Below are positions 52,713-64,000 of a DNA stretch of 64,000 nucleotides, in pieces. Every line of letters starts with the position of its first letter. Position 1 is the stretch's first letter. The stretch is from the NCBI GenBank assembly GCA_035301265.1, contig DATGUP010000013.1, positions 1,803 to 65,802 on the forward strand, read 5' to 3'. The translations under genes were made by a program, and so were the position numbers. Source of the DNA: Bacillota bacterium (GTDB taxonomy: Bacteria > Bacillota > Bacilli > Bacillales > Amphibacillaceae). The notes under the pieces were generated by a model that was not told the origin of the DNA, ran no database searches, and saw nothing but the letters and a program-made list of their open reading frames with translations.

Positions 52713-52783
52713 AATCGACAACTTTTTTAGATTTTTACCCAGAACGCCTTTTTTAGCCATAAACGGCATGGGGGGTGGGCAGC

Positions 52784-53722
52784 GTGCTACGCTATATATT
52801 CAAGCGCTTGTTTATCATGGTGATTACGATTTGGATCATCGTTACTTTGACGTTCATCCTGATGGTCAGTGTGCCTGGCTCGCCTTTTAACAACCCGGAT
52901 CAAAACATGAACGAGACCGTGCGAGAAAATCTCGAAAAACAATATAATCTCGACCAACCTTATGCGATTCGATATATACTTTATTTAAAGTCAGTCGTTA
53001 CACTTGATTTCGGCCCGTCGATCAAAAAGCCAAACGATACAGTGAACGATTTGCTCGGACGCGGGTTTCCGATTTCGTTTGAACTCGGTATGGTAACCAT
53101 CCTCGTTGCGGTTATCTCAGGGATTATTCTCGGCGTCATGGCTGCGCTTTGGCATAACGGCTTGATTGACTATATGGCGATGACGATTGCTGTGCTAGGC
53201 ATTTCTATTCCGAACTTTGTGTTAGCTGTGTTGCTCATACAAACCCTCGCGGTCAACGGGATTTTCCCGACAGCGCGCTGGGAAAGCCCTGTCCATATGG
53301 TCCTTCCTGTCATCGCTCTCGCCACAGGGCCGATGGCGATTATCGCTAGGCTTACGCGTTCAACAATGCTCGAAGTGCTCACGCAAGATTATATTAAAAT
53401 GGCCCGGGCGAAAGGGCTTTCGCCGTGGAAAATCGTCATTAAACATGCGTTGAAAAATGCTCTGATGCCGGTTGTAACAATTATGGGAACGCTGTTAGCT
53501 AGTATTTTGACCGGCACGTTTGTCATCGAAAAAATATTTGCGATCCCCGGCATGGGTAAATACTTTGTGGAAAGCATCAACCAACGTGACTATCCCGTCA
53601 TCATGGGAACGACCGTCTTTTATAGCGCTTTTTTAATCATCATGCTTTTTCTTGTCGATCTCGCATATGGCATTCTTGACCCGCGCATTCAAATACATAA
53701 GAAGGGCGGCGATCAAAAATGA
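52784..53722 (+). CDS. Oligopeptide/dipeptide ABC transporter permease (OppB/DppB type)
   Basis: I prefer the GTG start at 52784 (MLRYIFKRL...). The EAA-type motif region (KMARAKGLSPWKIVIKHALKNAL) is present. Confidence 0.92.
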   Translation: MLRYIFKRLFIMVITIWIIVTLTFILMVSVPGSPFNNPDQNMNETVRENLEKQYNLDQPYAIRYILYLKSVVTLDFGPSIKKPNDTVNDLLGRGFPISFELGMVTILVAVISGIILGVMAALWHNGLIDYMAMTIAVLGISIPNFVLAVLLIQTLAVNGIFPTARWESPVHMVLPVIALATGPMAIIARLTRSTMLEVLTQDYIKMARAKGLSPWKIVIKHALKNALMPVVTIMGTLLASILTGTFVIEKIFAIPGMGKYFVESINQRDYPVIMGTTVFYSAFLIIMLFLVDLAYGILDPRIQIHKKGGDQK

Positions 53723-54645
53723 AGCCGACACGTGTACCTGATGAATGGTTTAAATGGAAAGAAAAAAATCTCGAAATCGCCGAGACCGTCTCCCGTCCCT
53801 CTCTCTCGTATTGGCAAGATGCGTGGCGGCGACTTGTTAACAATAAATTGGCAATGACAGGATTAGTTTTCCTCATTCTGTTAGCTGGTATGGCTTTGTT
53901 TGGGCCGAAATTAACACCGTATTCAGTCAACATTCAAGATTTGCCCAATCAGTATCAACCCCCATCAACCAAGCATTGGTTTGGCACGGATAATTTAGGA
54001 CGCGATGTGTTTACGCGAACGTGGTACGGCGCGCGCATATCGCTTTTTGTCGGTTTGATGGCCGCCTTGATCGACTTTTTTGTCGGAGTCATCTACGGTG
54101 GAATCGCTGGTTACAAAGGTGGGCGGACCGATGAAGTGATGATGCGGATCATCGAGATTTTATACGGTTTGCCGTATTTGCTTGTAGTCATTCTGTTGCT
54201 TGTCGTATTAGGCCCGAGTTTGCTTACGATTATCATCGCTCTTTCGGTGACCGGTTGGGTTGGTATGGCGCGGATTGTTCGAGGTCAAGTATTACAGTTA
54301 AAAAATGAAGAATTCGTTCTCGCTTCGCAGTCGTTTGGAGCAACGACATGGCGGATTATTCGCAAAAACTTGCTCCCGAATACGATGGGCCCGATTATTG
54401 TACAAATGACACTGACGGTTCCGACTGCTATATTTGCCGAAGCCTTCTTAAGTTTTATCGGGCTCGGTATCCAGTCACCGTACGCGAGTTGGGGAGTGAT
54501 GGCGGATGATGCCCTTGGGGCGATTCTTTCCGGTCATTGGTGGACATTGTTTTTCCCGGCGTTTTTTATCTCGTTCACGATGTTTGCATTTAATGTGCTC
54601 GGTGATGGGCTACAGGATGCGCTCGATCCGAAATTGCGGAAGTAG
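53719..54645 (+). CDS. Oligopeptide/dipeptide ABC transporter permease (OppC/DppC type)
   Basis: 308 aa with an ATGA overlap with the upstream permease and a typical OppC N-terminal region. Confidence 0.92.
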   Translation: MKPTRVPDEWFKWKEKNLEIAETVSRPSLSYWQDAWRRLVNNKLAMTGLVFLILLAGMALFGPKLTPYSVNIQDLPNQYQPPSTKHWFGTDNLGRDVFTRTWYGARISLFVGLMAALIDFFVGVIYGGIAGYKGGRTDEVMMRIIEILYGLPYLLVVILLLVVLGPSLLTIIIALSVTGWVGMARIVRGQVLQLKNEEFVLASQSFGATTWRIIRKNLLPNTMGPIIVQMTLTVPTAIFAEAFLSFIGLGIQSPYASWGVMADDALGAILSGHWWTLFFPAFFISFTMFAFNVLGDGLQDALDPKLRK

Positions 54646-55659
54646 GTGGAACCATTGGAAAACGTGCTTGATATAAATGACTTACACGTAACATTTTCGA
54701 CGTATGGCGGAACGATTAAAGCCGTAAGAGGTGTCAGTTTTCGCATTCATAAAGGTGAAACATTGGCGCTTGTCGGGGAATCCGGGTGCGGAAAAAGCGT
54801 TACAGCCAATGCCATCATGCGTCTGATTCCGGATCCGCCGGGCAAGATTGCTCGCGGAAAAATCATGTTCAATGGGATGGATTTGGCGAGGCGAACCGAG
54901 CGAGAGATGCGCCGTATCCGTGGGGTCGATATTTCGATGATCTTCCAAGATCCGATGACGGCTTTGAACCCGACGCTTTCGATTGGAACACAACTACTGG
55001 AAGGTATTAAACACCATCGCAATCTGTCGACAAAGCAGGCGAAGCAAAAGGCGTTGGAGATGATGCATCTCGTCGGCATTCCTAATCCAGACGAACGTTT
55101 AAAGCACTACCCACATCAATTTAGCGGTGGCATGCGTCAGCGCATCGTGATCGCCATGGCGCTCATCTGTGAGCCACAGCTTCTGATTGCTGATGAGCCG
55201 ACAACCGCTCTCGATGTCACGATCCAAGCGCAAATTCTTGATTTATTTGCGCACATCCAGAAAGAAACAGGTGTAGCCATTATTCTCATCACCCACGATT
55301 TAGGCGTTGTTGCTCAAATTGCTGATCGGATCGCCGTTATGTATGCCGGTAAAATCATTGAAACAGGAACAAAACGAGACATTTTCTACAGGGCTGAACA
55401 TCCGTATACAAAAGGTTTATTACATTCGGTGCCGCGCCTTGATCGCAAAGAGGAGCAACTCATCCCGATTGACGGGACACCACCTGATTTATTCGCACCT
55501 CCACAAGGTTGTCCCTTTACAGCACGCTGTCCTTTTGCCATGGAGGTGTGTGATAAATTATATCCCGTTCATACAAGGCTATCGGCGACCCACCGAGTGG
55601 ACTGCTGGTTGCAGGATGAACGGGCGAAACAACTTCTGGCGCAAACAGCCGGAAAATAA
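54646..55659 (+). CDS. Oligopeptide ABC transporter ATP-binding protein (OppD type)
   Basis: Walker A GESGCGKS, signature FSGGMRQR, Walker [13 protein letters not shown], and the C-terminal oligopeptide/dipeptide domain with Cys motifs. Confidence 0.94.
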
Positions 55660-55671
55660 GGGGGAGAAACA

Positions 55672-57330
55672 ATGATGAAAAAGTGGTTTGGGATTGTGTT
55701 CGTCGTTTTGGCTGTTTCCTTTTTGGCGGCATGTACAGCCAATGAAAGTGCTGGTGAGGATGATGATGCAAATAACGAGGAAAGCGAGGACAATGCCGAG
55801 GTACAAGAAGAATCCGATGATATGGAAAAGGTCCTGTACATGAACAACGGAGAAGAGCCGTCATCATTCAACCCGCCTGTCGGTTTCGATTCGGTATCGT
55901 GGAATGCATTGAACAATTTGATGGAAGGGTTGACACGGCTCGGTGATGATCATACACCAGAGCCAGCGATGGCCGAGGATTGGGATATTTCCGATGACGG
56001 GATAACATACACCTTCTACATTCGCGATGATGCCAACTGGTCGAATGAAGATCCAGTAACCGCTGATGATTTCGTCTATGCTTGGACGAAATTATTGGAT
56101 CCAGAAACCGAATCACCTGCTTCATTTTTAGCTTTTTTAATTGAAAACGGCGAGGAATTTTATAATGGTGATGCATCTGCAGATGATCTTGGGTTGAAAG
56201 CTGTGGATGAAAAAACATTTGAAGTCGAGCTTAATGCGCCAGCGGGCTATTTCTTGCATGTCGTCACAAACCCTGCCTTTTTTCCCGTCAACAAAGCCGT
56301 CGCCGAAGATAACCCCGATTGGCATGCGGAAGCCGATTCATTTATCGGCAATGGGCCATTTGAGCTGGAATCCTGGGAGCATGATGACGAGTTTGTCATG
56401 GTGAAAAATGATGCGTATTGGGATGCCGAGTCTGTTCATCTGGACAAAATTCATTGGGCTATGGTGAATGAAACAACGACTGAATACCAGATGTTTGAAA
56501 ATGGTGAGCTCGATATGTCGAGTATTCCAGCGGAAATGTCAGATGAATTGATCGATGATGCAAACACCGTGATTGAAGATCAAGGTGGGCTTGAGTTTTA
56601 CCGGTTTAACGTCATGGAAGAACCGTTTACAAACGAAAAGATCCGAAGGGCGCTTGCCTTTGCAGTTGATCGGGAGGAAATGGCGGAATACGTTGTCAAA
56701 AACGGCGTTGAACCGGCGTTTGGCTTTGTGTCTCCCGGATTTCTCAACCCGTCGGATGAAGATTTTCGCGATGTGAATGGCGACTTGGTAACCTTTGATC
56801 CCGAGGCGGCAAAACAGTTGTTAGAAGAAGGAATGGAAGAAGAAGGTTATGAGGAGCTGCCGGAAATCACGCTTTCGTACAATACAAGTGAAGACAACAA
56901 AGCCGTTGCTGAAGCGTTGCAAGGCATGTTTGCAGAAAATCTCGATGTTGAAGTATCGTTGGAGAATAAGGAATGGAACGTATTCTCCGAGGAGCAAATG
57001 GACTTGGAGCTGCAATTTTCCCGCAGTTCGTTCCTGTTTGATTACGCCGACCCGATCAATTTCTTGGAAAGTTTTATTACCGATTCGTCGATGAATCGAA
57101 CCGGCTGGGATAATGAAGAATATAACGATTTGATCGCCAAGGCTAAGACGGAAAGCGACGAGAACGCGCGCTGGGAATACATGTACGAAGCGGAAAAACT
57201 GCTGGCAGAAGAAATGCCCATCCTTCCGATTCGTTATTACAATCAGGTAGTTATTCAAAACCCGGATATCTCTGGCATTGTGCGTCACCCAGTTGGCTAT
57301 ATTGAATTGAAACATGCCGATAAAAACTGA
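55672..57330 (+). CDS. Peptide ABC transporter substrate-binding lipoprotein (family 5 SBP, OppA/MppA-like)
   Basis: 552 aa with the lipobox LAAC, an acidic linker and an SBP_bac_5 pattern. Confidence 0.9.
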   Translation: MMKKWFGIVFVVLAVSFLAACTANESAGEDDDANNEESEDNAEVQEESDDMEKVLYMNNGEEPSSFNPPVGFDSVSWNALNNLMEGLTRLGDDHTPEPAMAEDWDISDDGITYTFYIRDDANWSNEDPVTADDFVYAWTKLLDPETESPASFLAFLIENGEEFYNGDASADDLGLKAVDEKTFEVELNAPAGYFLHVVTNPAFFPVNKAVAEDNPDWHAEADSFIGNGPFELESWEHDDEFVMVKNDAYWDAESVHLDKIHWAMVNETTTEYQMFENGELDMSSIPAEMSDELIDDANTVIEDQGGLEFYRFNVMEEPFTNEKIRRALAFAVDREEMAEYVVKNGVEPAFGFVSPGFLNPSDEDFRDVNGDLVTFDPEAAKQLLEEGMEEEGYEELPEITLSYNTSEDNKAVAEALQGMFAENLDVEVSLENKEWNVFSEEQMDLELQFSRSSFLFDYADPINFLESFITDSSMNRTGWDNEEYNDLIAKAKTESDENARWEYMYEAEKLLAEEMPILPIRYYNQVVIQNPDISGIVRHPVGYIELKHADKN

Positions 57331-57342
57331 CGAGTAGACGAG

Positions 57343-57383
57343 GGCCCATTTACATGTAGGCGTATTTGGGCCGTTCTTTTTTA
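57343..57383 (+). terminator. Hairpin plus T tract after the SBP gene (GGCCCA-17 nt-TGGGCC, then gttctttttt)
   Basis: 6-bp GC stem with a long loop; probably a partial terminator. Confidence 0.45.
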
Positions 57384-57474
57384 TCAAAAATGCAGAATTC
57401 TTATGATGGCTCCTTCGTTTTCTTATACGTTGTTGTGCGTATAACAATTGATGTTAAATAAAGGGATGAGCTCA

Positions 57475-58392
57475 ATGATATATCCAAAGCGATTGAAGCG
57501 TGGGGATACTATCGGCCTCATTGCACCGGCCGGACCGGTGGATGTGGACCGTTTAAATCAAGCAGTCGCTTTTTATGAAACCCTCGGGTTATGCGTCAAG
57601 CTCGGCCAGAATATTGATCGCGTTTACGGTTATTTGGCCGGAAGAGATACTGAGCGACTAGGCGATTTGCATGCGATGGTAGCCGACCCGACGGTCAAAG
57701 CGATTATGTTTGCCCGCGGCGGTTACGGCACAGGACGACTTGTATCCGATATCGATGAGGGATTGATACGCACCCATCCTAAAATTTTTTGGGGCTATAG
57801 CGATATCACTTATTTACATATAGCGATTCAAAAACGAACGGAATTGATCACTTTTCATGGGCCGATGGCTGTATCGGATGTTGCCAAAGCCACCTTTGAT
57901 CCGCTGTCGGCACGATTGTTTTCCCAACTGTTTGCACCAAGTACACTCATCTATGGTGAACAGATTGCTCCACTTCATGTCTATGCTCATGGTGAGGCTA
58001 AAGGGCGGCTTGCCGGTGGGAATTTATCGCTTATTATCAGCACGCTCGGCACGCCGGATGAAATAGATACAGATGGAAAGCTCCTTCTTTTAGAAGATAT
58101 TGGAGAAGAGCCCTACAAGATAGACGGCATGTTGAATCAACTCCAACGTTCTGGGAAATTAGCTGGGGCAGCTGGTATCGTGCTTGGTCATTTTACGCGC
58201 GCGCAACCGCACGTTAAGCCGTCGCTATTATTAAAGGAAGTGTTTAATGACTATTTCGCTCATCTTAACATCCCAGTCATCGGCGGTTTTGAAATCGGGC
58301 ATTCGCTGCCGAATCTTGCTGTTCCGCTTGGTGCTCGAGCTTATTTGTCCACAGATTCCAAACGGCTTGTCGTTGAACCTGGTGTCACTTAA
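57475..58392 (+). CDS. LD-carboxypeptidase (peptidase S66, LdcA/YkfA-like muramoyltetrapeptide carboxypeptidase)
   Basis: ATG 57475 after AAGGGA, 305 aa. The S66 pattern is present (GDTIGLIAPAGP, GYSDITYLH nucleophile Ser, and a C-terminal E..GH region, FEIGHSLPN). Confidence 0.85.
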   Translation: MIYPKRLKRGDTIGLIAPAGPVDVDRLNQAVAFYETLGLCVKLGQNIDRVYGYLAGRDTERLGDLHAMVADPTVKAIMFARGGYGTGRLVSDIDEGLIRTHPKIFWGYSDITYLHIAIQKRTELITFHGPMAVSDVAKATFDPLSARLFSQLFAPSTLIYGEQIAPLHVYAHGEAKGRLAGGNLSLIISTLGTPDEIDTDGKLLLLEDIGEEPYKIDGMLNQLQRSGKLAGAAGIVLGHFTRAQPHVKPSLLLKEVFNDYFAHLNIPVIGGFEIGHSLPNLAVPLGARAYLSTDSKRLVVEPGVT

Positions 58393-58462
58393 CGTCCATT
58401 GGCCGACTGTGCACTTTCATTCGTTATCTGTTAGTAATTGATGTCTTGAGAGGAGGAGGACT

Positions 58463-59467
58463 ATGAATGAAAACATATTACAAGTAAAGGCGTTGACGAA
58501 GCATTTTGATATCGGGCGTGGGCAAAGATTGCAGGCGGTCAATCATGTAACATTCGATGTCCGTGTTGGAGAGACATTCGGACTTGTCGGTGAATCTGGC
58601 TGCGGTAAGTCAACGATCGGTCGCACGGTCATGGGCCTTTATGACAAAACTGATGGCGATGTATTTTACAATGGGCAAAATGTCCATGACATGAGTGCTG
58701 AGGAAACATTTCAGTTCCGTCGCACGATGCAGATGATTTTTCAAGATCCGTATGCCTCACTCAATCCTCGTTCGACAGTAAAAGAAATCATCGCCGAACC
58801 GATGGAAGTTCATCGGATGTATACCGATAAAAAGGCACAGCTCAATCGTGTTTATCAGCTGCTTGAAGAAGTCGGTTTAAACCGTGATCATGCCAATCGC
58901 TATCCCCATGAATTTAGTGGTGGCCAAAGGCAGCGGATCGGCATTGCTCGGGCCTTGGCGCTTGATCCTGAATTTATTATTGCCGATGAGCCCATTTCCG
59001 CACTTGACGTTTCCGTCCAAGCCCAAGTAGTGAATTTATTGAAACGTCTACAACAGGACAAAGGATTAACGTTTTTGTTTATCGCTCATGATTTGTCGAT
59101 GGTGAAACATATTTCCGATCGGATAGGTGTCATGTATTTAGGAAATCTCGTTGAACTAACAAGCAGCGCACAGCTATACGATAATCCGCTCCATCCATAT
59201 ACACAAGCGTTGTTGTCAGCCATCCCTATCCCCGATCCGGATGTTGAGGAAAAACGTGAGCGGATCATTCTCCAAGGCGATTTGCCGAGCCCGATCAATC
59301 CGCCAAGCGGTTGCGTCTTTCGCACGCGTTGCCCGTTAGCTATGGAAGTTTGTGCTCAAGAAAAACCGGCTTGGCAAGAAATCGAGCGACACCATTATGT
59401 CGCCTGCCATCTTTACAATAAGAAAACAATAAAAACAGAGCAGATGTTGAACATACATATAAGATAA
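58463..59467 (+). CDS. Oligopeptide ABC transporter ATP-binding protein (OppF type)
   Basis: Walker [10 protein letters not shown], signature FSGGQRQR, Walker [13 protein letters not shown]. Confidence 0.94.
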
Positions 59468-59576: not shown

Positions 59577-60719
59577 ATGTTTGGAAAAAAGTTTAACCAA
59601 CGCTACAACACGATTCCCAAGATTCGGAAACAGAAAAAGAAAAATCGGTTCTATGTTTCGAAAAGTAAAATCGGCCAAAAACGCATCTTGCACTCGAATA
59701 AACGCCCACCATGGCAATGGCCTGCCTTTTTGTTTGTTGCCATATTCGTCGCTGTTATTCTTGTCATCCCCGCGTTAATCGTTGTTCCGTTTATTCAAGA
59801 TGATTCCGCAGAAAGCGTCACTGCTGAAACCGATCCGGTCTCTGTGGAATTGCAGGAAGGAGATTCTCCGTTTTCTGTTGCGGTCTTGCGGTCGCAAACA
59901 GACAAAATCGAGGATGTGCCGCTGGAAGAATATGTCTCAGGCGTGGTCGCGGCGGAGATGCCTGCTGATTTTGAAATCGAAGCGTTGAAGGCGCAAGCTC
60001 TCGCTGCCCGGACCTATATTGTGAATCATCTTCTTTATCAAGACGAATCAGGAGAAGATGATGTGACAGATACTGTTAGGCACCAAGTGTACAAAAATGA
60101 AGAAGAATTGCGCAAGCAGTGGGGGAGTGACTACACTTGGAAAATGCGCCGGATTAACGAAGCAGTCGCAGCCACCAAAGGGGAGATTCTCACTTATGAC
60201 GATACGACGATTACACCGGCTTTTTTCTCAACGAGTAATGGCTATACCGAAAATGCCGCTGATTACTGGGAGAATGACTTACCGTATTTAAAAAGCGTTG
60301 AAAGCCCGTGGGATGAATCCTCGCCGAAATTTCTCGATCAGCAAGTTGTCACATTAGAAGAGGTCGAGCAAGCTTTAGGCATTTCTCTGCCTCGGGACGA
60401 ATCGATCTCAGCTGATATAACTCGAACCGACAGCGACCGAGTGAAACAATTACAGCTGGCCGGTGAGACATTTTCCGGTCGGGATGTTAGGGAAAGCCTT
60501 GATCTACCATCGACCGATTTTACTATTGAACAAAAAGACCATCATTTGATTTTTACGACGAAAGGTTTTGGCCATGGTATCGGCATGAGCCAGTACGGGG
60601 CAAACGGCATGGCTAAAGAAGGAAAAACATATCAGGAGATTGTCACGCATTATTATCAAGGAGTGGAAATTAGCGAGGTTGCTGATACCGCACCAACCCT
60701 TGTCGCACAGGAGGGCTAA
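59577..60719 (+). CDS. spoIID: Stage II sporulation protein D (lytic transglycosylase)
   Basis: 380 aa with a basic N-terminus and TM anchor, then the SpoIID domain (LEEYVSGVVAAEMPADFEIEALKAQALAARTY, FFSTSNGYTENA, GHGIGMSQYGA). Confidence 0.9.
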   Translation: MFGKKFNQRYNTIPKIRKQKKKNRFYVSKSKIGQKRILHSNKRPPWQWPAFLFVAIFVAVILVIPALIVVPFIQDDSAESVTAETDPVSVELQEGDSPFSVAVLRSQTDKIEDVPLEEYVSGVVAAEMPADFEIEALKAQALAARTYIVNHLLYQDESGEDDVTDTVRHQVYKNEEELRKQWGSDYTWKMRRINEAVAATKGEILTYDDTTITPAFFSTSNGYTENAADYWENDLPYLKSVESPWDESSPKFLDQQVVTLEEVEQALGISLPRDESISADITRTDSDRVKQLQLAGETFSGRDVRESLDLPSTDFTIEQKDHHLIFTTKGFGHGIGMSQYGANGMAKEGKTYQEIVTHYYQGVEISEVADTAPTLVAQEG

Positions 60720-60895
60720 AGCAGATATGTATGCACCCGGGGTGTTCGCATCCCGGGATTTTTAGTTCTACACTTAGCGCAGGCTACTTAGCTTGCCCAG
60801 ATTTTTGTTAAAAAATGCACAAAATCGTGAAAAATGCACCTCATCATGTATAGATCTTATTTTTTCTGATCAGACTGGTTGATGAGGTGATAATA

Positions 60896-61732
60896 ATGAA
60901 AGAAGAACAAAACGGGACTCCGAAAAATAAATGGAGTCGCTTATTCCGCAAAAAGTGGTTTTTTCCGGCGGTATATTTAGTTGTCGCTACCCTTTTGCTG
61001 GTCGGGGTTGTATGGTATCAAAACTTGGATCATCAGATGCCCGATATGGCGGATGACCATGACGAGTTGACCGATACCTACACGCCAAACCCGTTTGATG
61101 AGGAAGCCGAACCTGTTGTTGATCAGGATGAAGTCGTCAAAATGCCTGTCGAAGATCAGGAGCAAACAGAAATCGTAACTAAATTTTATGATTACAACGC
61201 AGATGAAGAAGACCAAAAAGACGCATTGGTCTTTCATAACAATCGCTACCATCAAAGTACAGGTATTGACATTGCAGCTGAAGACGGCGAACCTTTTGAT
61301 GTCACAGCCAGCTTAAGTGGAACGGTCGAAGAGGTAAAAGAGGATCCGTTGCTTGGAAATGTTGTTACATTATCACATGGCAACGACGTGTTGACGTACT
61401 ACGCAAGCCTCGATGACATTGCTGTAGAAACAGGCCAGGAAGTTGAACAAGGCGATACTCTTGGAAGTGCAGGCAAAAATCTTTTCGGCAAGGATAATGG
61501 CAATCACGTCCACTTTGAAATCCGAAAAGAAGGGAAAGAATACAACCCGGAAACATTTTTCAACAAGCCGGTAAGCGACATCGGTGCAGAATCGGACGAA
61601 GAGGCAACAGAAGAATCTGATGGTGGTGCTGATGATGAACAAGAAGAAGAGATGCCCGAAAATGATAGGTTAGAAGATGAAGATACCGACACGCCAGATG
61701 ATGTTGAAGATGGTGAAACTGACGAAGATTAA
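60896..61732 (+). CDS. spoIIQ: Stage II sporulation protein Q (degenerate LytM/M23 domain, acidic C-terminal tail)
   Basis: ATG 60896 after GAGGTG. It has a TM anchor and an M23-like domain in which Ser replaces the first His (QSTGIDIA), as I recall for B. subtilis SpoIIQ. NHVHFEIRKEG is retained. Confidence 0.85.
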   Translation: MKEEQNGTPKNKWSRLFRKKWFFPAVYLVVATLLLVGVVWYQNLDHQMPDMADDHDELTDTYTPNPFDEEAEPVVDQDEVVKMPVEDQEQTEIVTKFYDYNADEEDQKDALVFHNNRYHQSTGIDIAAEDGEPFDVTASLSGTVEEVKEDPLLGNVVTLSHGNDVLTYYASLDDIAVETGQEVEQGDTLGSAGKNLFGKDNGNHVHFEIRKEGKEYNPETFFNKPVSDIGAESDEEATEESDGGADDEQEEEMPENDRLEDEDTDTPDDVEDGETDED

Positions 61733-61757
61733 GCAAGAAGATAAATGTGAAATAGCT

Positions 61758-61789
61758 ACTCCAGTACATGTTGCTGGAGTTATTTTTTT
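61758..61789 (+). terminator. Intrinsic terminator after spoIIQ (ACTCCAG-9 nt-CTGGAGT + T-rich run)
   Basis: Read directly. Confidence 0.8.
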
Positions 61790-61940
61790 GTGCGATCGTT
61801 GTGCAAAAAGTGTCGAACGAAAAGGGGCTGATTTCTATTAAATCTATGTTATGATGTACTACGTAAAAGCCTTTTTCAGAAAATAAACAAACGAGTGAAA
61901 GCGATTATTTGATATAAAAATTTGAAAGGAGACGTCTGTC

Positions 61941-62963
61941 ATGGATTTTTCGAGACCCCATATAGGAACCCGTTCCATGCCTATTAAAAGTGGCATGTCT
62001 TTAGAGCATTTGTTGCGAATGCTTTCACAACAACATTCCGATGCATCGACGCGGGAGTTAATCCGAAAGTATTGCCTAGAGACAACCTCAGATGAGATGC
62101 AGAAAAAAGGGATGGAATTTCTATATATACACGGTTTTCTTTCCGATCTCGAGCAGCTGATTGAAAAAAATCGCACATCCGCTGATACGTCGAAGCAACA
62201 ATGGGCAGTGGCTTACCGGCTTGTGATAGATTCCAGAAAGGAAAACATCCCGCCTATAGACATTTTAAGGCGCGCCCGTAATATCAAAACGCATGAACCA
62301 GAGCTGAAGTGTGTCGTCGAGTTCGTCAAAAATACCGCTTACTTTCGACTCAATGATTACGGCAGTATGGGCAATTTTTTACATAGATTGCAACAATTAT
62401 TCGATCAGATTGATGACCGGCTGATCGTATCCTACTTTAAAATCCGGTTGTATCAAAATTTGTTTATCTATTATTGGATGCGAAATGAATTGATCATCGC
62501 CAGAAAATACGCTTTCCGCGCTTTGAACAAGACGCCGAATCCGATGACGAAAGTGAATATTCATATTAATCTCGGTTTGACATACACGTTTGATACGTTT
62601 CATCAAGGGATGTATCACATGTCGGAAGCACTTAAATTGTCTCAAACCCACCGTTATGATGATCAGATTTATCGGATAAAGCATCGGAACATTCCTTTTT
62701 TAGCGGCCGTGTTCAAGCAAACTGAGAACATGACAACCGATGATAAAAGCGAACAAGCTCATTTAGCCATTGCACGAGGGGATTTGCCAAGAGCACGCGC
62801 CCTATTAGATGAGATTCCGATTGATTCACCGTTTCGTCTTTACTATTTAGGTTTAGCTCAACAAAACAGGGATATTCTTACCCAAGCTTATAACCAGTTT
62901 ATTGAAAAAAGAAGCGACTTTTTTTTCAGCCGTTTACCATTAAAAGCTTTAAGCAAACTGTAG
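61941..62963 (+). CDS. AimR-family (arbitrium-type) TPR peptide receptor homologue with a short N-terminus
   Basis: 340 aa, SD AAAGGAG, with an in-frame TGA just upstream. By eye it is collinear with my recollection of SPbeta/phi3T AimR: ELIRKYCLE vs ELMKDYCLN, NIKTHE vs NIKTPE, SEQAH vs QEQAH, LYYLGLAQQN vs HYYLKGRLEQN, and C-terminal SDFFFSRLPLKALSKL vs NDKFLIRLPLLELQKM. Confidence 0.55.
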   Translation: MDFSRPHIGTRSMPIKSGMSLEHLLRMLSQQHSDASTRELIRKYCLETTSDEMQKKGMEFLYIHGFLSDLEQLIEKNRTSADTSKQQWAVAYRLVIDSRKENIPPIDILRRARNIKTHEPELKCVVEFVKNTAYFRLNDYGSMGNFLHRLQQLFDQIDDRLIVSYFKIRLYQNLFIYYWMRNELIIARKYAFRALNKTPNPMTKVNIHINLGLTYTFDTFHQGMYHMSEALKLSQTHRYDDQIYRIKHRNIPFLAAVFKQTENMTTDDKSEQAHLAIARGDLPRARALLDEIPIDSPFRLYYLGLAQQNRDILTQAYNQFIEKRSDFFFSRLPLKALSKL

Positions 62964-63015
62964 GAGCTGCAGCTACCTGAGCAGTCGTTTAACGTTTTTG
63001 AAAGGGGGGAGAATC

Positions 63016-63093
63016 ATGAGTCACTTCTTATTCAAACTTTTCTTCAGCTTTCCACAAGCTCAATTGGATCCAGAGCTCGGCGATATCGATTAA
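63016..63093 (+). CDS. 25-aa peptide ORF directly downstream of the AimR-like gene (candidate signalling pro-peptide)
   Basis: ATG 63016 lies 6 nt after the strong SD AAAGGGGGGAG. The product is MSHFLFKLFFSFPQAQLDPELGDID: a hydrophobic N-half, a PQA-Q junction and an acidic C-half. A terminator follows immediately. Confidence 0.5.
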   Translation: MSHFLFKLFFSFPQAQLDPELGDID

Positions 63094-63102
63094 CGAGCGA
63101 TG

Positions 63103-63137
63103 AAAGAAGGCTGCTCGGTTATGGGCAGTCTTCTTTT
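63103..63137 (+). terminator. Intrinsic terminator after the peptide ORF (AAAGAAGGCTGC-10 nt-GCAGTCTTCTTT)
   Basis: 12-bp stem with one G.U pair and a T-rich 3' side. Confidence 0.7.
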
Positions 63138-63366
63138 GTGCACATTCAAAACACGGCAAGAGCTCCCCTTCAGCCGCTGCTTTCGCGGTGTTACATATAT
63201 CCATTAACCTCTCGCATTTGCATCGACCGTTGTTTTATTCACGATGTGTCCCTTCAATTAAATATAACCCGTCCTTATTCGCAAAAGTCTAAATTTAAGC
63301 ATATTCCCCTGCCCCTAATAATAAAATGTTACAAACCAAGCAATCAGACATCTGAGGTGAGCACTT

Positions 63367-63444
63367 ATGTGGCTTTTTATCAAGGCAGGTCAACCGAATA
63401 TCATTTCCGAACATAAGAAAGCTTTTGTACATAACGGTTATTAA
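63367..63444 (+). other. Second 25-aa ORF with a strong SD in the ORF-poor region (MWLFIKAGQPNIISEHKKAFVHNGY)
   Basis: GAGGTGA lies 6 nt before ATG 63367. I recognised no homology. Confidence 0.3.
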
Positions 63445-63664
63445 AACTTTCAACTGTTAGTAACAACACCATGACTTTATTGAAACATAACTACTGCAAT
63501 GCATGCCTATGATGGGGCATACGTTTAAACCTACATCATGAAAATAAATGAACATCTTCCCAATTCCTCACGATACCATCCGAATAATCGCAAGCCGCAT
63601 GGTACATGTATCACCTTGTCTCGATTCACACCTTAAAATATTCCAGCTTAGGGAGGCGAATGGT

Positions 63665-63946
63665 GTGCACGATTACATCAAAGAAAGGACAATCAGGATC
63701 GGGAAACATGTCGTGGAGACGAGGAAAACCGTCCGTACGATCGCGAAAGAATTCGGCGTTTCCAAAAGTACCGTCCACAAAGATTTAACCGAGCGCTTGC
63801 CGGAAATCAACCCGGAGCTGTATCAAGAAGTAAAGAAGGTCCTCGAATACCACAAATCGATCCGCCATCTTCGCGGAGGAGAAGCAACGCGTAAAAAATA
63901 CCGCTTGAAAACGGTCAAAGCCAAGTCGGCTAAACCAGTCGGATAA
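63665..63946 (+). CDS. spoIIID: Stage III sporulation protein D (mother-cell transcription factor)
   Basis: GTG start at 63665 after AGGGAGG. The 93-aa product (VHDYIKERTIRIGKHVVETRKTVRTIAKEFGVSKSTVHKDLTERLPEINPELYQEVKKVLEYHKSIRHLRGGEATRKKY) is nearly identical in pattern and length to B. subtilis SpoIIID. Confidence 0.93.
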   Translation: MHDYIKERTIRIGKHVVETRKTVRTIAKEFGVSKSTVHKDLTERLPEINPELYQEVKKVLEYHKSIRHLRGGEATRKKYRLKTVKAKSAKPVG

Positions 63947-64000
63947 GGATGCTATCAAAAGCCTAATGATTCAGTATACAATGAGGTGATGGATGAAACA

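What the first reader, a model, noticed from the sequence alone, without database searches (positions are those of the whole stretch)
63016..63093. Atypical 25-aa candidate signalling peptide downstream of the AimR-like gene
The ORF starts 52 nt after the receptor stop, has a very strong SD (AAAGGGGGGAG, 6-nt spacer) and is followed at once by a 12-bp-stem terminator. This is the aimR-aimP / rap-phr gene arrangement. The peptide MSHFLFKLFFSFPQAQLDPELGDID is unusual. It is roughly half the length of AimP or Phr pro-peptides. It has no basic n-region for Sec. Its C-terminus is acidic (ELGDID) rather than the xxxxG(G/A) arbitrium signature. It looks more like a short hydrophobic peptide of the Rgg/SHP class than a Sec-exported AimP.
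Basis: partly seen in the sequence, partly recalled or inferred. Interest (0 to 1): 0.7.

Follow-up and report, generated by a model that had tools for sequence, protein, structure and literature searches.

The report
Short-leader AimP-like peptide, HTH-less receptor
The 25-codon ORF is a real, conserved signalling-peptide gene: its C-terminus (DPELGDID) carries the signature of a chromosomal family related to phage arbitrium systems, whose receptor has lost its DNA-binding domain, lies among core sporulation genes and sits behind a conserved Spo0A-box promoter. This species' peptide has an abnormally short export leader.

Summary
In detail: ORF 63016-63093, 52 nt after the receptor stop, strong SD, strong terminator (z -5.2).

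The acidic C-terminus is the family signature, not an oddity. 64 of 80 species loci carry a propeptide ORF downstream of the orthologous receptor. In the 61 analysed, D1, P2 and G5 of a DPxxGxxD unit are invariant while every synonymous codon is used. 50 of 61 stop exactly after residue 8. Tandem copies (up to 9) repeat exactly this octamer.

The leader is what is atypical. It has 17 residues (next shortest 25, median 30), no basic N-terminus, and the weakest hydrophobic core of the 61.

The system differs from arbitrium:
- The receptor has an AimR fold (TM 0.75-0.82) but lacks the HTH domain.
- It lies between spoIIQ and spoIIID in 78 of 80 species and is not phage-borne.
- A perfect Spo0A box (TGTCGAA) with an extended -10 precedes it in 77 of 81 loci.

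A 2025 supplementary table already lists relatives as cereus-type AimR. It labels them as HTH-bearing and does not discuss them. I found no paper linking AimR to spoIIID.

Verdict: new variant of a known kind. The SHP/Rgg reading is not supported.

The parts
61758..61790 (+). Terminator of the upstream spoIIQ gene. It marks the 5' boundary of the receptor-peptide transcription unit.
   Evidence: 9-bp stem, 5-nt loop and a T-run. SpoIIQ is identified by NCBIfam NF053738 (318 bits, cut-off 250).
61802..61817 (+). Predicted Spo0A binding site. A perfect 0A box TGTCGAA (61811-61817) is preceded by an imperfect box whose CGAA-type core lies 10 bp upstream, leaving a 3-bp spacer.
   Evidence: exact TGTCGAA is present upstream of the receptor in 77 of 81 loci, and 2 more have one mismatch. 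The consensus is tGCgAAAwtTGTCGAACGAtt. The 8-mer occurs in 64 of 79 loci against about 1 of 79 in shuffles. The 0A-box consensus and the paired-box geometry come from PMC2731898.
61847..61855 (+). Extended -10 element (TGtTATGAT) of the predicted promoter. No good -35 is present. The 0A box is centred near -48.
   Evidence: Read directly from the sequence. The positional matrix shows a TG-n-TAtnAT element about 32 nt downstream of the box across loci. The start-site position is inferred.
61941..62963 (+). AimR-family peptide receptor of 340 aa. [quoted passage not shown]
   Evidence: HMMs; PDB profile alignment starts at SPbeta AimR residue 47; AF2 model, pLDDT 92.7, residues 1-20 disordered, then 18 helices; Foldseek TM 0.75-0.82 to AimR structures; alignment with phage AimRs.
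63000..63011 (+). Shine-Dalgarno sequence of the peptide gene (GAAAGGGGGGAG).
   Evidence: Orthologous peptide ORFs carry GGAGG-type SDs at the same distance.
63016..63093 (+). AimP-like propeptide gene, 25 codons plus stop. Leader: MSHFLFKLFFSFPQAQL.
   Evidence: The ORF is identical in 11 metagenome contigs of the same species.
63067..63090 (+). Codons for the predicted mature signal DPELGDID (an octapeptide, or a 6-7-residue sub-fragment of it).
   Evidence: D1, P2 and G5 are invariant in 61 of 61 loci with all synonymous codons in use, and 50 of 61 ORFs end exactly 8 residues after D1; tandem repeats reiterate exactly this unit.
63097..63141 (+). Intrinsic terminator that closes the bicistronic operon.
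   Evidence: (-26.9 kcal/mol, z -5.24).

Best explanation
The ORF encodes this species' version of the pro-peptide of a vertically inherited, chromosomal AimR/AimP-type signalling pair. Receptor and peptide form one operon (promoter with Spo0A box, receptor, 52 nt, peptide, terminator). The operon is probably switched on by Spo0A~P at the transition to sporulation. The signal is the C-terminal acidic octapeptide DPELGDID, or a 6-7-residue fragment released at the Asp-Pro. In relatives it is released from a Sec-type pre-pro-peptide. By analogy with other RRNPPA systems it would be re-imported and bind the TPR groove of the receptor. The receptor has no HTH, so its output must be a protein-protein interaction or peptide sequestration, as with Rap, and not the operator binding that phage AimR uses. 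In this species the leader has shrunk to 17 residues without a basic n-region, so export, if it happens, is inefficient or uses a non-canonical route. Shown here: the ORF is real, homologous and under protein-level selection; the receptor has the AimR fold and lacks the HTH; the synteny holds; the 0A box is conserved. Inferred: Spo0A control, secretion, re-import, binding, and the nature of the output.
For: Receptor family and fold. Missing HTH, from four independent lines: (1) the NCBIfam match starts at profile position 33, while the HTH of SpoIIID hits positions 6-33 of the same profile; (2) the PDB profile alignment starts at SPbeta AimR residue 47, and the DNA-binding domain is residues 1-49, helices a1-a3 (PMC9232636); (3) in the AF2 model residues 1-20 are disordered and unconserved; (4) phage AimRs from Waukesha92 and LY4 carry an XRE-type HTH segment that this family lacks. 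Peptide conservation: 64 of 80 loci have the ORF. Codon-level test: P2 uses 4 codons, G5 4 codons and D1 2 codons, with no amino-acid change in 61 loci. 50 of 61 stop right after residue 8. Multi-copy propeptides (L011 x5, L014 x5, L032 x4, L045 x9) repeat the octamer with variable spacers. There are 47 distinct octapeptides in 61 loci, the pattern expected of diversifying pherotypes. Chromosomal inheritance: SpoIIID lies downstream in 78 of 80 loci and SpoIIQ upstream in 77 of 80. No relatives were found in IMG/VR. Phage and plasmid AimRs are only 21-26% identical. Promoter. Operon structure.
Against: The leader is the most deviant of 61. It has 17 aa (next 25, median 30). Net charge over the first 6 residues is 0, against +1 or more in 59 of 61. 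The longest uncharged run is 10 (next 15). The maximum 12-residue hydropathy is 1.23 against a median of 2.79. So secretion is doubtful in this species. No relatives closer than 58% identity exist, apart from same-species contigs at over 99.6%, so the truncation cannot be dated and selection within this lineage cannot be measured. No peptide binding, export or Spo0A dependence has been measured. 16 of 80 loci keep the receptor without any peptide gene, so the receptor can function, or at least persist, without a cognate signal. A published table labels relatives 'HTH_9TPRs' (PMC12700828), which conflicts with my result. That label may have been assigned at subfamily level.
Confidence: 0.6

Rival explanations
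1. Decaying signal gene. The leader has been truncated, the pro-peptide is no longer exported, and the receptor in this species works as an orphan or 'eavesdropper'. This would be an intermediate step towards the complete peptide loss seen in other lineages.
For: The leader is the extreme outlier on every simple signal-peptide criterion. Peptide loss is common in this family: 16 of 80 loci, mostly Oceanobacillus. Orphan chromosomal AimRs are reported as frequent (PMC9765709).
Against: The SD is strong, the mature motif is perfect, the stop codon is in the canonical place and the terminator is intact. A gene free of selection would be expected to lose these as readily as its leader. The ORF is intact in all 11 same-species contigs that cover it, although they are too similar to be informative.
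Confidence: 0.22
2. Cell-autonomous regulator. The 25-mer, or a cytoplasmically processed fragment, is never exported. It binds the co-expressed receptor inside the producing cell and so turns a quorum sensor into an internal timer or buffer under Spo0A control.
For: There is no credible Sec leader. Peptide and receptor are co-transcribed from one promoter.
Against: There is no precedent in RRNPPA systems. All 60 orthologous peptides analysed keep long hydrophobic leaders, which implies the ancestral mode is extracellular. A cytoplasmic route would still need a way to cut the peptide from its leader.
Confidence: 0.08
3. One reading: a short hydrophobic peptide of the Rgg/SHP class, exported by a PptAB/EcsAB-type ABC transporter and cut by an Eep/RasP-type membrane protease instead of by Sec and signal peptidase.
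For: At 25 aa with a hydrophobic N-terminal half and no Sec n-region, it resembles SHP, ComS and PrgQ-type precursors (my own knowledge of those families; length and composition).
Against: The receptor has the 9-TPR AimR fold, not an Rgg fold. The peptide is homologous to Sec-type AimP-like propeptides. In SHP-type peptides the hydrophobic C-terminus is the signal, whereas here the conserved C-terminus is acidic. Class membership is therefore excluded. Only an analogous export route remains possible.
Confidence: 0.08
4. Not a gene. It is a chance ORF overlapping a conserved DNA or RNA element, or the real gene is the 58-aa antisense ORF 63028-63204 that automatic gene callers pick.
For: Gene callers on 12 metagenome contigs annotate the antisense ORF and not the 25-aa ORF. 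Short ORFs are abundant by chance.
Against: Invariant amino acids are encoded by every synonymous codon across 61 loci. That is incompatible with a nucleotide-level constraint. SD position and stop placement are conserved. There is no Rfam match. Terminators after the peptide are not conserved in sequence.
Confidence: 0.02

Closest known systems
B. cereus-group arbitrium systems (AimR/AimP of phages such as Waukesha92; 'subfam_04_AimR_cereus' in PMC12700828 Supplementary Table 1)
   Same: Same receptor family and 9-TPR fold. The peptide gene sits immediately downstream on the same strand. The mature peptide is at the extreme C-terminus and contains Asp-Pro...Gly (the 'DPG' motif). That table already lists chromosomal relatives from Virgibacillus, Amphibacillus and Radiobacillus (332-345 aa) with ...DPGYGDID...DPDFGDVD and DPEHGEIF x4.
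   Different: There is no HTH DNA-binding domain. The system is not on a phage or plasmid; it lies at a fixed chromosomal site between spoIIQ and spoIIID. Identity to phage AimRs is only 21-26%. The peptide is an acidic octamer DPxxGDxD, not DPGGGG-type. No conserved aimX-like element lies downstream. A Spo0A-box promoter is present. In this window the leader is truncated.
SPbeta/phi3T arbitrium (AimR-AimP-AimX)
   Same: Operon logic of receptor followed by a short secreted peptide. Solved AimR structures are the best structural matches (TM 0.75-0.82).
   Different: SPbeta AimR binds an operator through helices a1-a3, residues 1-49 (PMC9232636), which are absent here. The xxxxG(G/A) hexapeptide signature is absent. 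There is no lysis-lysogeny context.
Rap-Phr
   Same: An HTH-less TPR receptor paired with a downstream secreted pro-peptide that carries a C-terminal signal. Chromosomal and linked to sporulation control. The most likely output is protein-protein interaction.
   Different: It is not a Rap. Foldseek matches to Rap are weak (E about 1e-3, TM 0.4-0.6). There is no N-terminal three-helix bundle: only about 20 disordered residues precede the first TPR-type helices.
Rgg-SHP / ComR-ComS
   Same: A short precursor (17-35 aa) without a classical Sec signal.
   Different: The receptor fold differs. In SHP the signal is the hydrophobic C-terminus, whereas here it is acidic. There is no homology.

Membership tests
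AimR (arbitrium receptor) family | Sequence match to the curated family HMMs above threshold | tested here: met
   Pfam PF22871 E 4.6e-76, 256 bits (cut-off 26.7). NCBIfam NF038310 181.5 bits (cut-off 70)..
AimR (arbitrium receptor) family | C-terminal regulatory domain of about 9 degenerate TPRs, as in solved AimR structures | tested here: met
   AF2 model with pLDDT 92.7 and 18 helices from residue 21. The top 16 Foldseek hits are all AimR, TM 0.73-0.82.
AimR (arbitrium receptor) family | N-terminal three-helix HTH DNA-binding domain (SPbeta residues 1-49, recognition helix a3; PMC9232636) | tested here: not met
   The profile match begins at NF038310 position 33 and at SPbeta residue 47. 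Residues 1-20 are disordered and unconserved. The alignment with Waukesha92 and LY4 AimR shows the XRE HTH segment is missing. No upstream in-frame start exists.
AimR (arbitrium receptor) family | Encoded by a temperate phage, prophage or other mobile element next to lysogeny genes | tested here: not met
   The order spoIID-spoIIQ-receptor-peptide-spoIIID-mbl is conserved in 78 of 80 species. There are no IMG/VR relatives. Paralogues also lie in an ordinary chromosomal context.
AimR (arbitrium receptor) family | Downstream aimX and an operator of two 6-bp palindromic half-sites separated by 25 bp (PMC9232636) | tested here: inconclusive
   No conserved block lies between the peptide gene and the usd/spoIIID leader. 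One AT-rich inverted repeat with 23-nt spacing is present (63258-63298), but its conservation was not checked, and it is moot if there is no HTH.
AimP-type propeptide | Short ORF immediately downstream of the receptor, on the same strand, with its own SD | tested here: met
   52-nt gap and a strong SD. The same arrangement holds in 64 of 80 loci.
AimP-type propeptide | N-terminal Sec signal peptide (basic n-region plus a hydrophobic core of about 15-20 residues) | tested here: not met
   By simple criteria only, since no SignalP was available. Leader 17 aa, net charge 0, longest uncharged run 10, hydropathy 1.23 against a median of 2.79. It is the lowest of 61 on each measure. Orthologues do meet this feature.
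AimP-type propeptide | Mature signal at the extreme C-terminus, conserved within the clade | tested here: met
   DPELGDID-stop. Unit boundaries are defined by stop placement (50 of 61) and by tandem repeats.
AimP-type propeptide | B. subtilis-type xxxxG(G/A) hexapeptide signature | tested here: not met
   The C-terminus is ...LGDID.
Rgg/SHP class | Rgg-type receptor (HTH plus a TPR-like repeat domain with five repeats) | tested here: not met
   The fold and the HMMs are AimR. No Rgg structure appears among the listed Foldseek matches.
Rgg/SHP class | Hydrophobic C-terminal mature peptide | tested here: not met
   The conserved C-terminus is acidic, with net charge about -4.
Rap-Phr | Rap fold with an N-terminal three-helix bundle that binds response regulators | tested here: not met
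   Rap structures match only at E of about 2.5e-3 or weaker, TM 0.36-0.62. There is no folded N-terminal domain.
Spo0A regulon (predicted) | Consensus 0A box(es) 5'-TGTCGAA-3' in the promoter region | tested here: met
   Exact box at 61811-61817. It is conserved in 77 of 81 loci at a fixed distance from an extended -10. Consensus from PMC2731898. Actual Spo0A binding and regulation cannot be tested with these tools.

The most novel reading that the evidence does not exclude
A whole clade of halophilic spore-formers (Virgibacillus, Lentibacillus, Oceanobacillus, Ornithinibacillus and relatives) carries an arbitrium-type receptor that has lost its HTH, whether domesticated from a phage or ancestral to the phage systems. 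It is wired to Spo0A and to the spoIIQ-spoIIID neighbourhood, and it uses acidic DPxxGDxD octapeptides. This would be a second, independent Rap-like solution for peptide control of sporulation. In this particular species the pro-peptide has also lost its Sec leader, so the signal either leaves the cell by a non-Sec route or acts inside the producer.
Probability: 0.3. Interest if true: 0.8.

Novelty: new variant of a known kind. Interest (0 to 1): 0.6.

Why it matters
Published surveys state that Rap is the only RRNPPA receptor type without an HTH (PMC9765709). They also report that chromosomal AimR homologues mostly lack peptides and may be eavesdropping on phages. These loci argue otherwise for one large clade. 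The receptor is HTH-less and inherited vertically at a fixed site among core sporulation genes. It is preceded by a conserved Spo0A box. In 80% of species it is paired with a peptide gene that annotation pipelines usually miss.

That gives a concrete, testable candidate for a host-owned, sporulation-linked peptide signalling system related to phage arbitrium. It bears on which came first, the phage system or the host system. The tandem-repeat propeptides define the signal unit without any biochemistry. The window's short-leader variant is a natural test of whether export is required for function.

Tried and rejected
1. Searched for close relatives of this species' locus, to measure synonymous against non-synonymous change and to date the leader truncation.
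- GTDB species genomes give at most 58% receptor identity.
- 12 Logan contigs are over 99.6% identical and uninformative.
- A JGI metagenome scan with the single protein found nothing.

2. IMG/VR scan for phage-borne relatives found none.

3. Rfam search on 61700-64000 at E up to 1 gave no match.

4. Literature.
- No paper holds both AimR and spoIIID.
- No paper holds arbitrium, DPG and AimP together.
- Stokar-Avihail 2019 is not held, so its clade definitions could not be checked.

5. The alternative TTG start at 62998 (31 aa, MKGGR...) was rejected. It has no SD, and the same 'MKGG' in L004, L049 and L057 is the translated SD ahead of the real ATG.

6. The antisense 58-aa ORF picked by gene callers was rejected on the codon evidence.

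7. I considered the neighbouring Opp/Dpp-type importer as part of the system. It is conserved in synteny, but its LD-carboxypeptidase suggests murein-peptide recycling, so I left it as a note.

8. The AT-rich inverted repeat 63258-63298 has AimR-operator-like spacing. I did not pursue it, because the receptor has no HTH and the repeat is low-complexity.

9. I did not map peptide-contact residues onto the receptor, because I could not verify the contact list from a held source.

Full report
OBSERVATION. It starts 52 nt after the stop of a 340-aa ORF (61941-62963). It is preceded by GAAAGGGGGGAG, which ends 4 nt before the ATG. It is followed by a hairpin whose 12-nt arms (63103-63114 and 63125-63136) are 92% complementary. 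The extended stem 63097-63141 folds at -26.9 kcal/mol, z = -5.24, and none of 200 shuffles folds as well. A 25-codon ORF is not remarkable in itself, since there are 99 ORFs of at least 20 aa in 6 kb. The case therefore rests on comparative evidence.

THE RECEPTOR AND ITS CONTEXT. The 340-aa protein matches Pfam AimR (E 4.6e-76) and NCBIfam lysogeny_AimR (181 bits, cut-off 70). Its neighbours are SpoIID (59577-60719), SpoIIQ (60887-61732; NF053738, 318 bits) and SpoIIID (63665-63946; TIGR02844). About 158 homologues exist, nearly all from Virgibacillus, Lentibacillus, Oceanobacillus and Ornithinibacillus, and all 330-350 aa long. In a scan of one genome per GTDB species, SpoIIID lies downstream in 78 of 80 loci and SpoIIQ upstream in 77 of 80. 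The two exceptions (L049, L057) are second copies in V. necropolis and V. flavescens, in an ordinary chromosomal context. No relative was found in IMG/VR. The nearest phage or plasmid AimRs, all from the B. cereus group, are 21-26% identical. This is a vertically inherited chromosomal gene, not a prophage gene. The window's own species appears only as a MAG protein (HLR09265.1) and short Logan contigs. Its closest receptor relative is 58% identical.

THE PEPTIDE IS CONSERVED AND TRANSLATED. Downstream of the receptor, 60 loci have an SD-preceded ORF of 33-178 aa by strict criteria. Four more (L012, L017, L019, L060) qualify by relaxed criteria. Sixteen have none. The typical form is MKK, then a long hydrophobic stretch, then a variable linker, then DP[EGD][LY]G[DE][ILMV]D and a stop. 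Across the 61 analysed ORFs, window included, D1, P2 and G5 are invariant although Pro uses four codons, Gly four and Asp two. That is selection on the amino acids, not on DNA or RNA. 50 of 61 ORFs stop exactly after residue 8.

Eleven species have several copies in one propeptide. Examples are DPGYGDIF x5 in L011, DPVMGDLD x5 in L014, DPE[LR]GQVD x4 in L032 and DPWLGELD x9 in a 178-aa propeptide in L045. The reiterated unit is exactly the octamer, with variable spacers. The mature signal is therefore the octamer, or a fragment cut at the Asp-Pro. There are 47 different octamers among 61 loci, and DPELGDID is unique to the window. This is the diversity expected of pherotypes. The window's acidic C-terminus is thus the family signature and not an anomaly.

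WHAT IS REALLY ATYPICAL: THE LEADER. The window's leader is 17 aa; the next shortest is 25 and the median is 30. Net charge over its first six residues is 0, while 59 of 61 have +1 or more. Its longest uncharged run is 10 residues (next 15). Its best 12-residue hydropathy window is 1.23 against a median of 2.79, the lowest of all. The upstream TTG (62998) would add MKGGRI but has no SD. In L004, L049 and L057 the same 'MKGG' is just the translated SD. Eleven same-species metagenome contigs carry the identical ORF. They differ from the window by at most 5 substitutions in 1.76 kb, so they say nothing about selection. Whether this leader still supports export cannot be decided here.

THE RECEPTOR HAS NO HTH. 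Four lines agree.
- The NCBIfam alignment starts at profile position 33. The HTH of SpoIIID weakly hits positions 6-33 of that same profile, which locates the profile's HTH there.
- A family profile aligns to solved AimR structures only from SPbeta residue 47. The AimR DNA-binding domain is helices a1-a3, residues 1-49 (PMC9232636).
- The AF2 model (pLDDT 92.7) has residues 1-20 disordered, followed by 18 helices. Those first 20 residues vary in length and sequence across the family. One same-species contig shifts the start by an indel to give a 328-aa product.
- Aligned with phage Waukesha92 and LY4 AimR (395 aa), the family lacks the XRE-type HTH segment.
The rest of the model superposes on AimR crystal structures with TM 0.75-0.82. 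Published overviews say Rap is the only RRNPPA type without an HTH (PMC9765709). They label the Virgibacillus relatives 'HTH_9TPRs' (PMC12700828).

A CONSERVED SPO0A-BOX PROMOTER. An unbiased 8-mer count on the 220 nt upstream of the receptor found TGTCGAA-containing words in about 64 of 79 loci, against about 1 in shuffles. An exact TGTCGAA lies upstream in 77 of 81 loci, and two more have one mismatch. The consensus is tGCgAAAwtTGTCGAACGAtt, so a second CGAA core lies 10 bp upstream. An extended -10 follows about 32 nt downstream; in the window these are TGTCGAA 61811-61817 and TGtTATGAT 61847-61855. No good -35 is present. TGTCGAA is the consensus 0A box, and paired boxes separated by 3 bp are a known Spo0A site geometry (PMC2731898). 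With the spoIIQ terminator upstream and the strong terminator after the peptide, this defines a two-gene operon. Spo0A~P control is predicted. Activation is inferred from the box position near -48 and the missing -35.

MECHANISM. My best reading is as follows. At the onset of sporulation Spo0A~P turns on the operon. In most species the pre-pro-peptide is exported by Sec, trimmed to the acidic octamer, re-imported and bound in the TPR groove. The receptor lacks an HTH, so it would act through a protein partner or by sequestration, as Rap does, and not through an operator. In this species the export step is in doubt. The rivals are a decaying peptide gene with an orphan receptor (0.22), a cell-autonomous peptide (0.08) and an SHP-like non-Sec export route (0.08). 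The chance-ORF reading is excluded by the codon evidence.

COMPARISON AND NOVELTY. The closest known kind is the B. cereus-type arbitrium pair. Its peptides carry a 'DPG' motif, as in Waukesha92 ...SEPGGGGW and LY4 ...TDPGGGGW (PMC12700828). Supplementary Table 1 of that paper already lists chromosomal receptors of 332-345 aa from Virgibacillus, Amphibacillus, Radiobacillus and Halobacillus. Their peptides include ...DPGYGDID...DPDFGDVD and DPEHGEIF x4. The peptide family as such is therefore catalogued, and multi-copy AimR propeptides have been noted before (PMC9765709). Four things are, as far as the held literature shows, not described: the missing HTH, the fixed position between spoIIQ and spoIIID (no paper mentions both AimR and spoIIID), the conserved 0A box, and this species' truncated leader. 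I rate it a new variant of a known kind.

LIMITS. Everything on function is inference from sequence. No SignalP-type predictor was available. The peptide-less loci and the published 'HTH' label remain unexplained.

Noticed in passing
window 52775-59467: An Opp/Dpp-type ABC importer (two permeases, two oligo_HPY ATPases, an SBP_bac_5 binding protein) plus an LD-carboxypeptidase (Peptidase_S66) sits directly upstream of spoIID. Its last ATPase is also found upstream of spoIID in at least 51 related loci. It could import the peptide, but it looks more like a murein-peptide (dpp/ykf-type) system.
   Followed up: partly
window 63325-63372 and 63610-63665; ORF 63367-63444: Two blocks upstream of spoIIID are strongly conserved across about 77 loci (...GTCTGAGGTGAGnGCTTgTG... 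and CACCTTGTCTC...TAGGGAGGCGAAcGGTGTG). With the 25-aa ORF MWLFIKAGQ... they probably form the usd-type leader on which spoIIID translation depends in B. subtilis. That link is from my own knowledge and was not tested.
   Followed up: partly
L045:4146-4680 (Virgibacillus sp. YIM 98842); also L011, L014, L032, L033: Highly reiterated propeptides. L045 has a 178-aa ORF with 9 copies of DPWLGELD alternating with DPEAGAMG-type spacers. L011, L014, L032 and L033 have 4-5 tandem copies. How the internal copies are released is unknown.
   Followed up: partly
L006, L031, L041, L058, L059, L061, L064, L065, L067, L068, L071, L072, L075-L078: Sixteen species, mostly Oceanobacillus, keep an intact receptor and the 0A box. 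They have no recognisable peptide ORF between the receptor and spoIIID, and the intergenic gap is shorter (350-710 nt). These are orphan receptors.
   Followed up: partly
L049 and L057 (V. necropolis, V. flavescens second copies): These are paralogous receptor-peptide pairs (DPGYGDLD, DPGYGDIG) outside the sporulation locus. They still carry 0A boxes. In L049 the pair lies near ada/ogt, ctaG and a thermolysin-type M4 protease.
   Followed up: partly
window 63028-63204 (- strand): Gene callers on all related metagenome contigs annotate a 58-aa antisense ORF overlapping the peptide gene and terminator, and do not call the 25-aa ORF. This is probably why the peptide goes unannotated.
   Followed up: no
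L092:2964-3000 (same species, sample ERR10899991): A one-base indel near the 5' end of the receptor gene moves the called start, giving a 328-aa product. This fits the view that the first 12 or so residues are dispensable.
   Followed up: no
window 63258-63266 / 63290-63298: An AT-rich inverted repeat (TTAAATATA ... TAAATTTAA) with 23 nt between the arms. The geometry recalls the AimR operator (6-bp half-sites 25 bp apart), but the repeat is low-complexity, its conservation was not checked, and the receptor has no HTH.
   Followed up: no
L017:4933-7333 (Virgibacillus sp. CBA3643): There are 2.4 kb between the receptor and spoIIID, and the peptide ORF (…DPSLGDID) lies 1.77 kb downstream of the receptor. 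Something has inserted between the receptor and its peptide gene.
   Followed up: no
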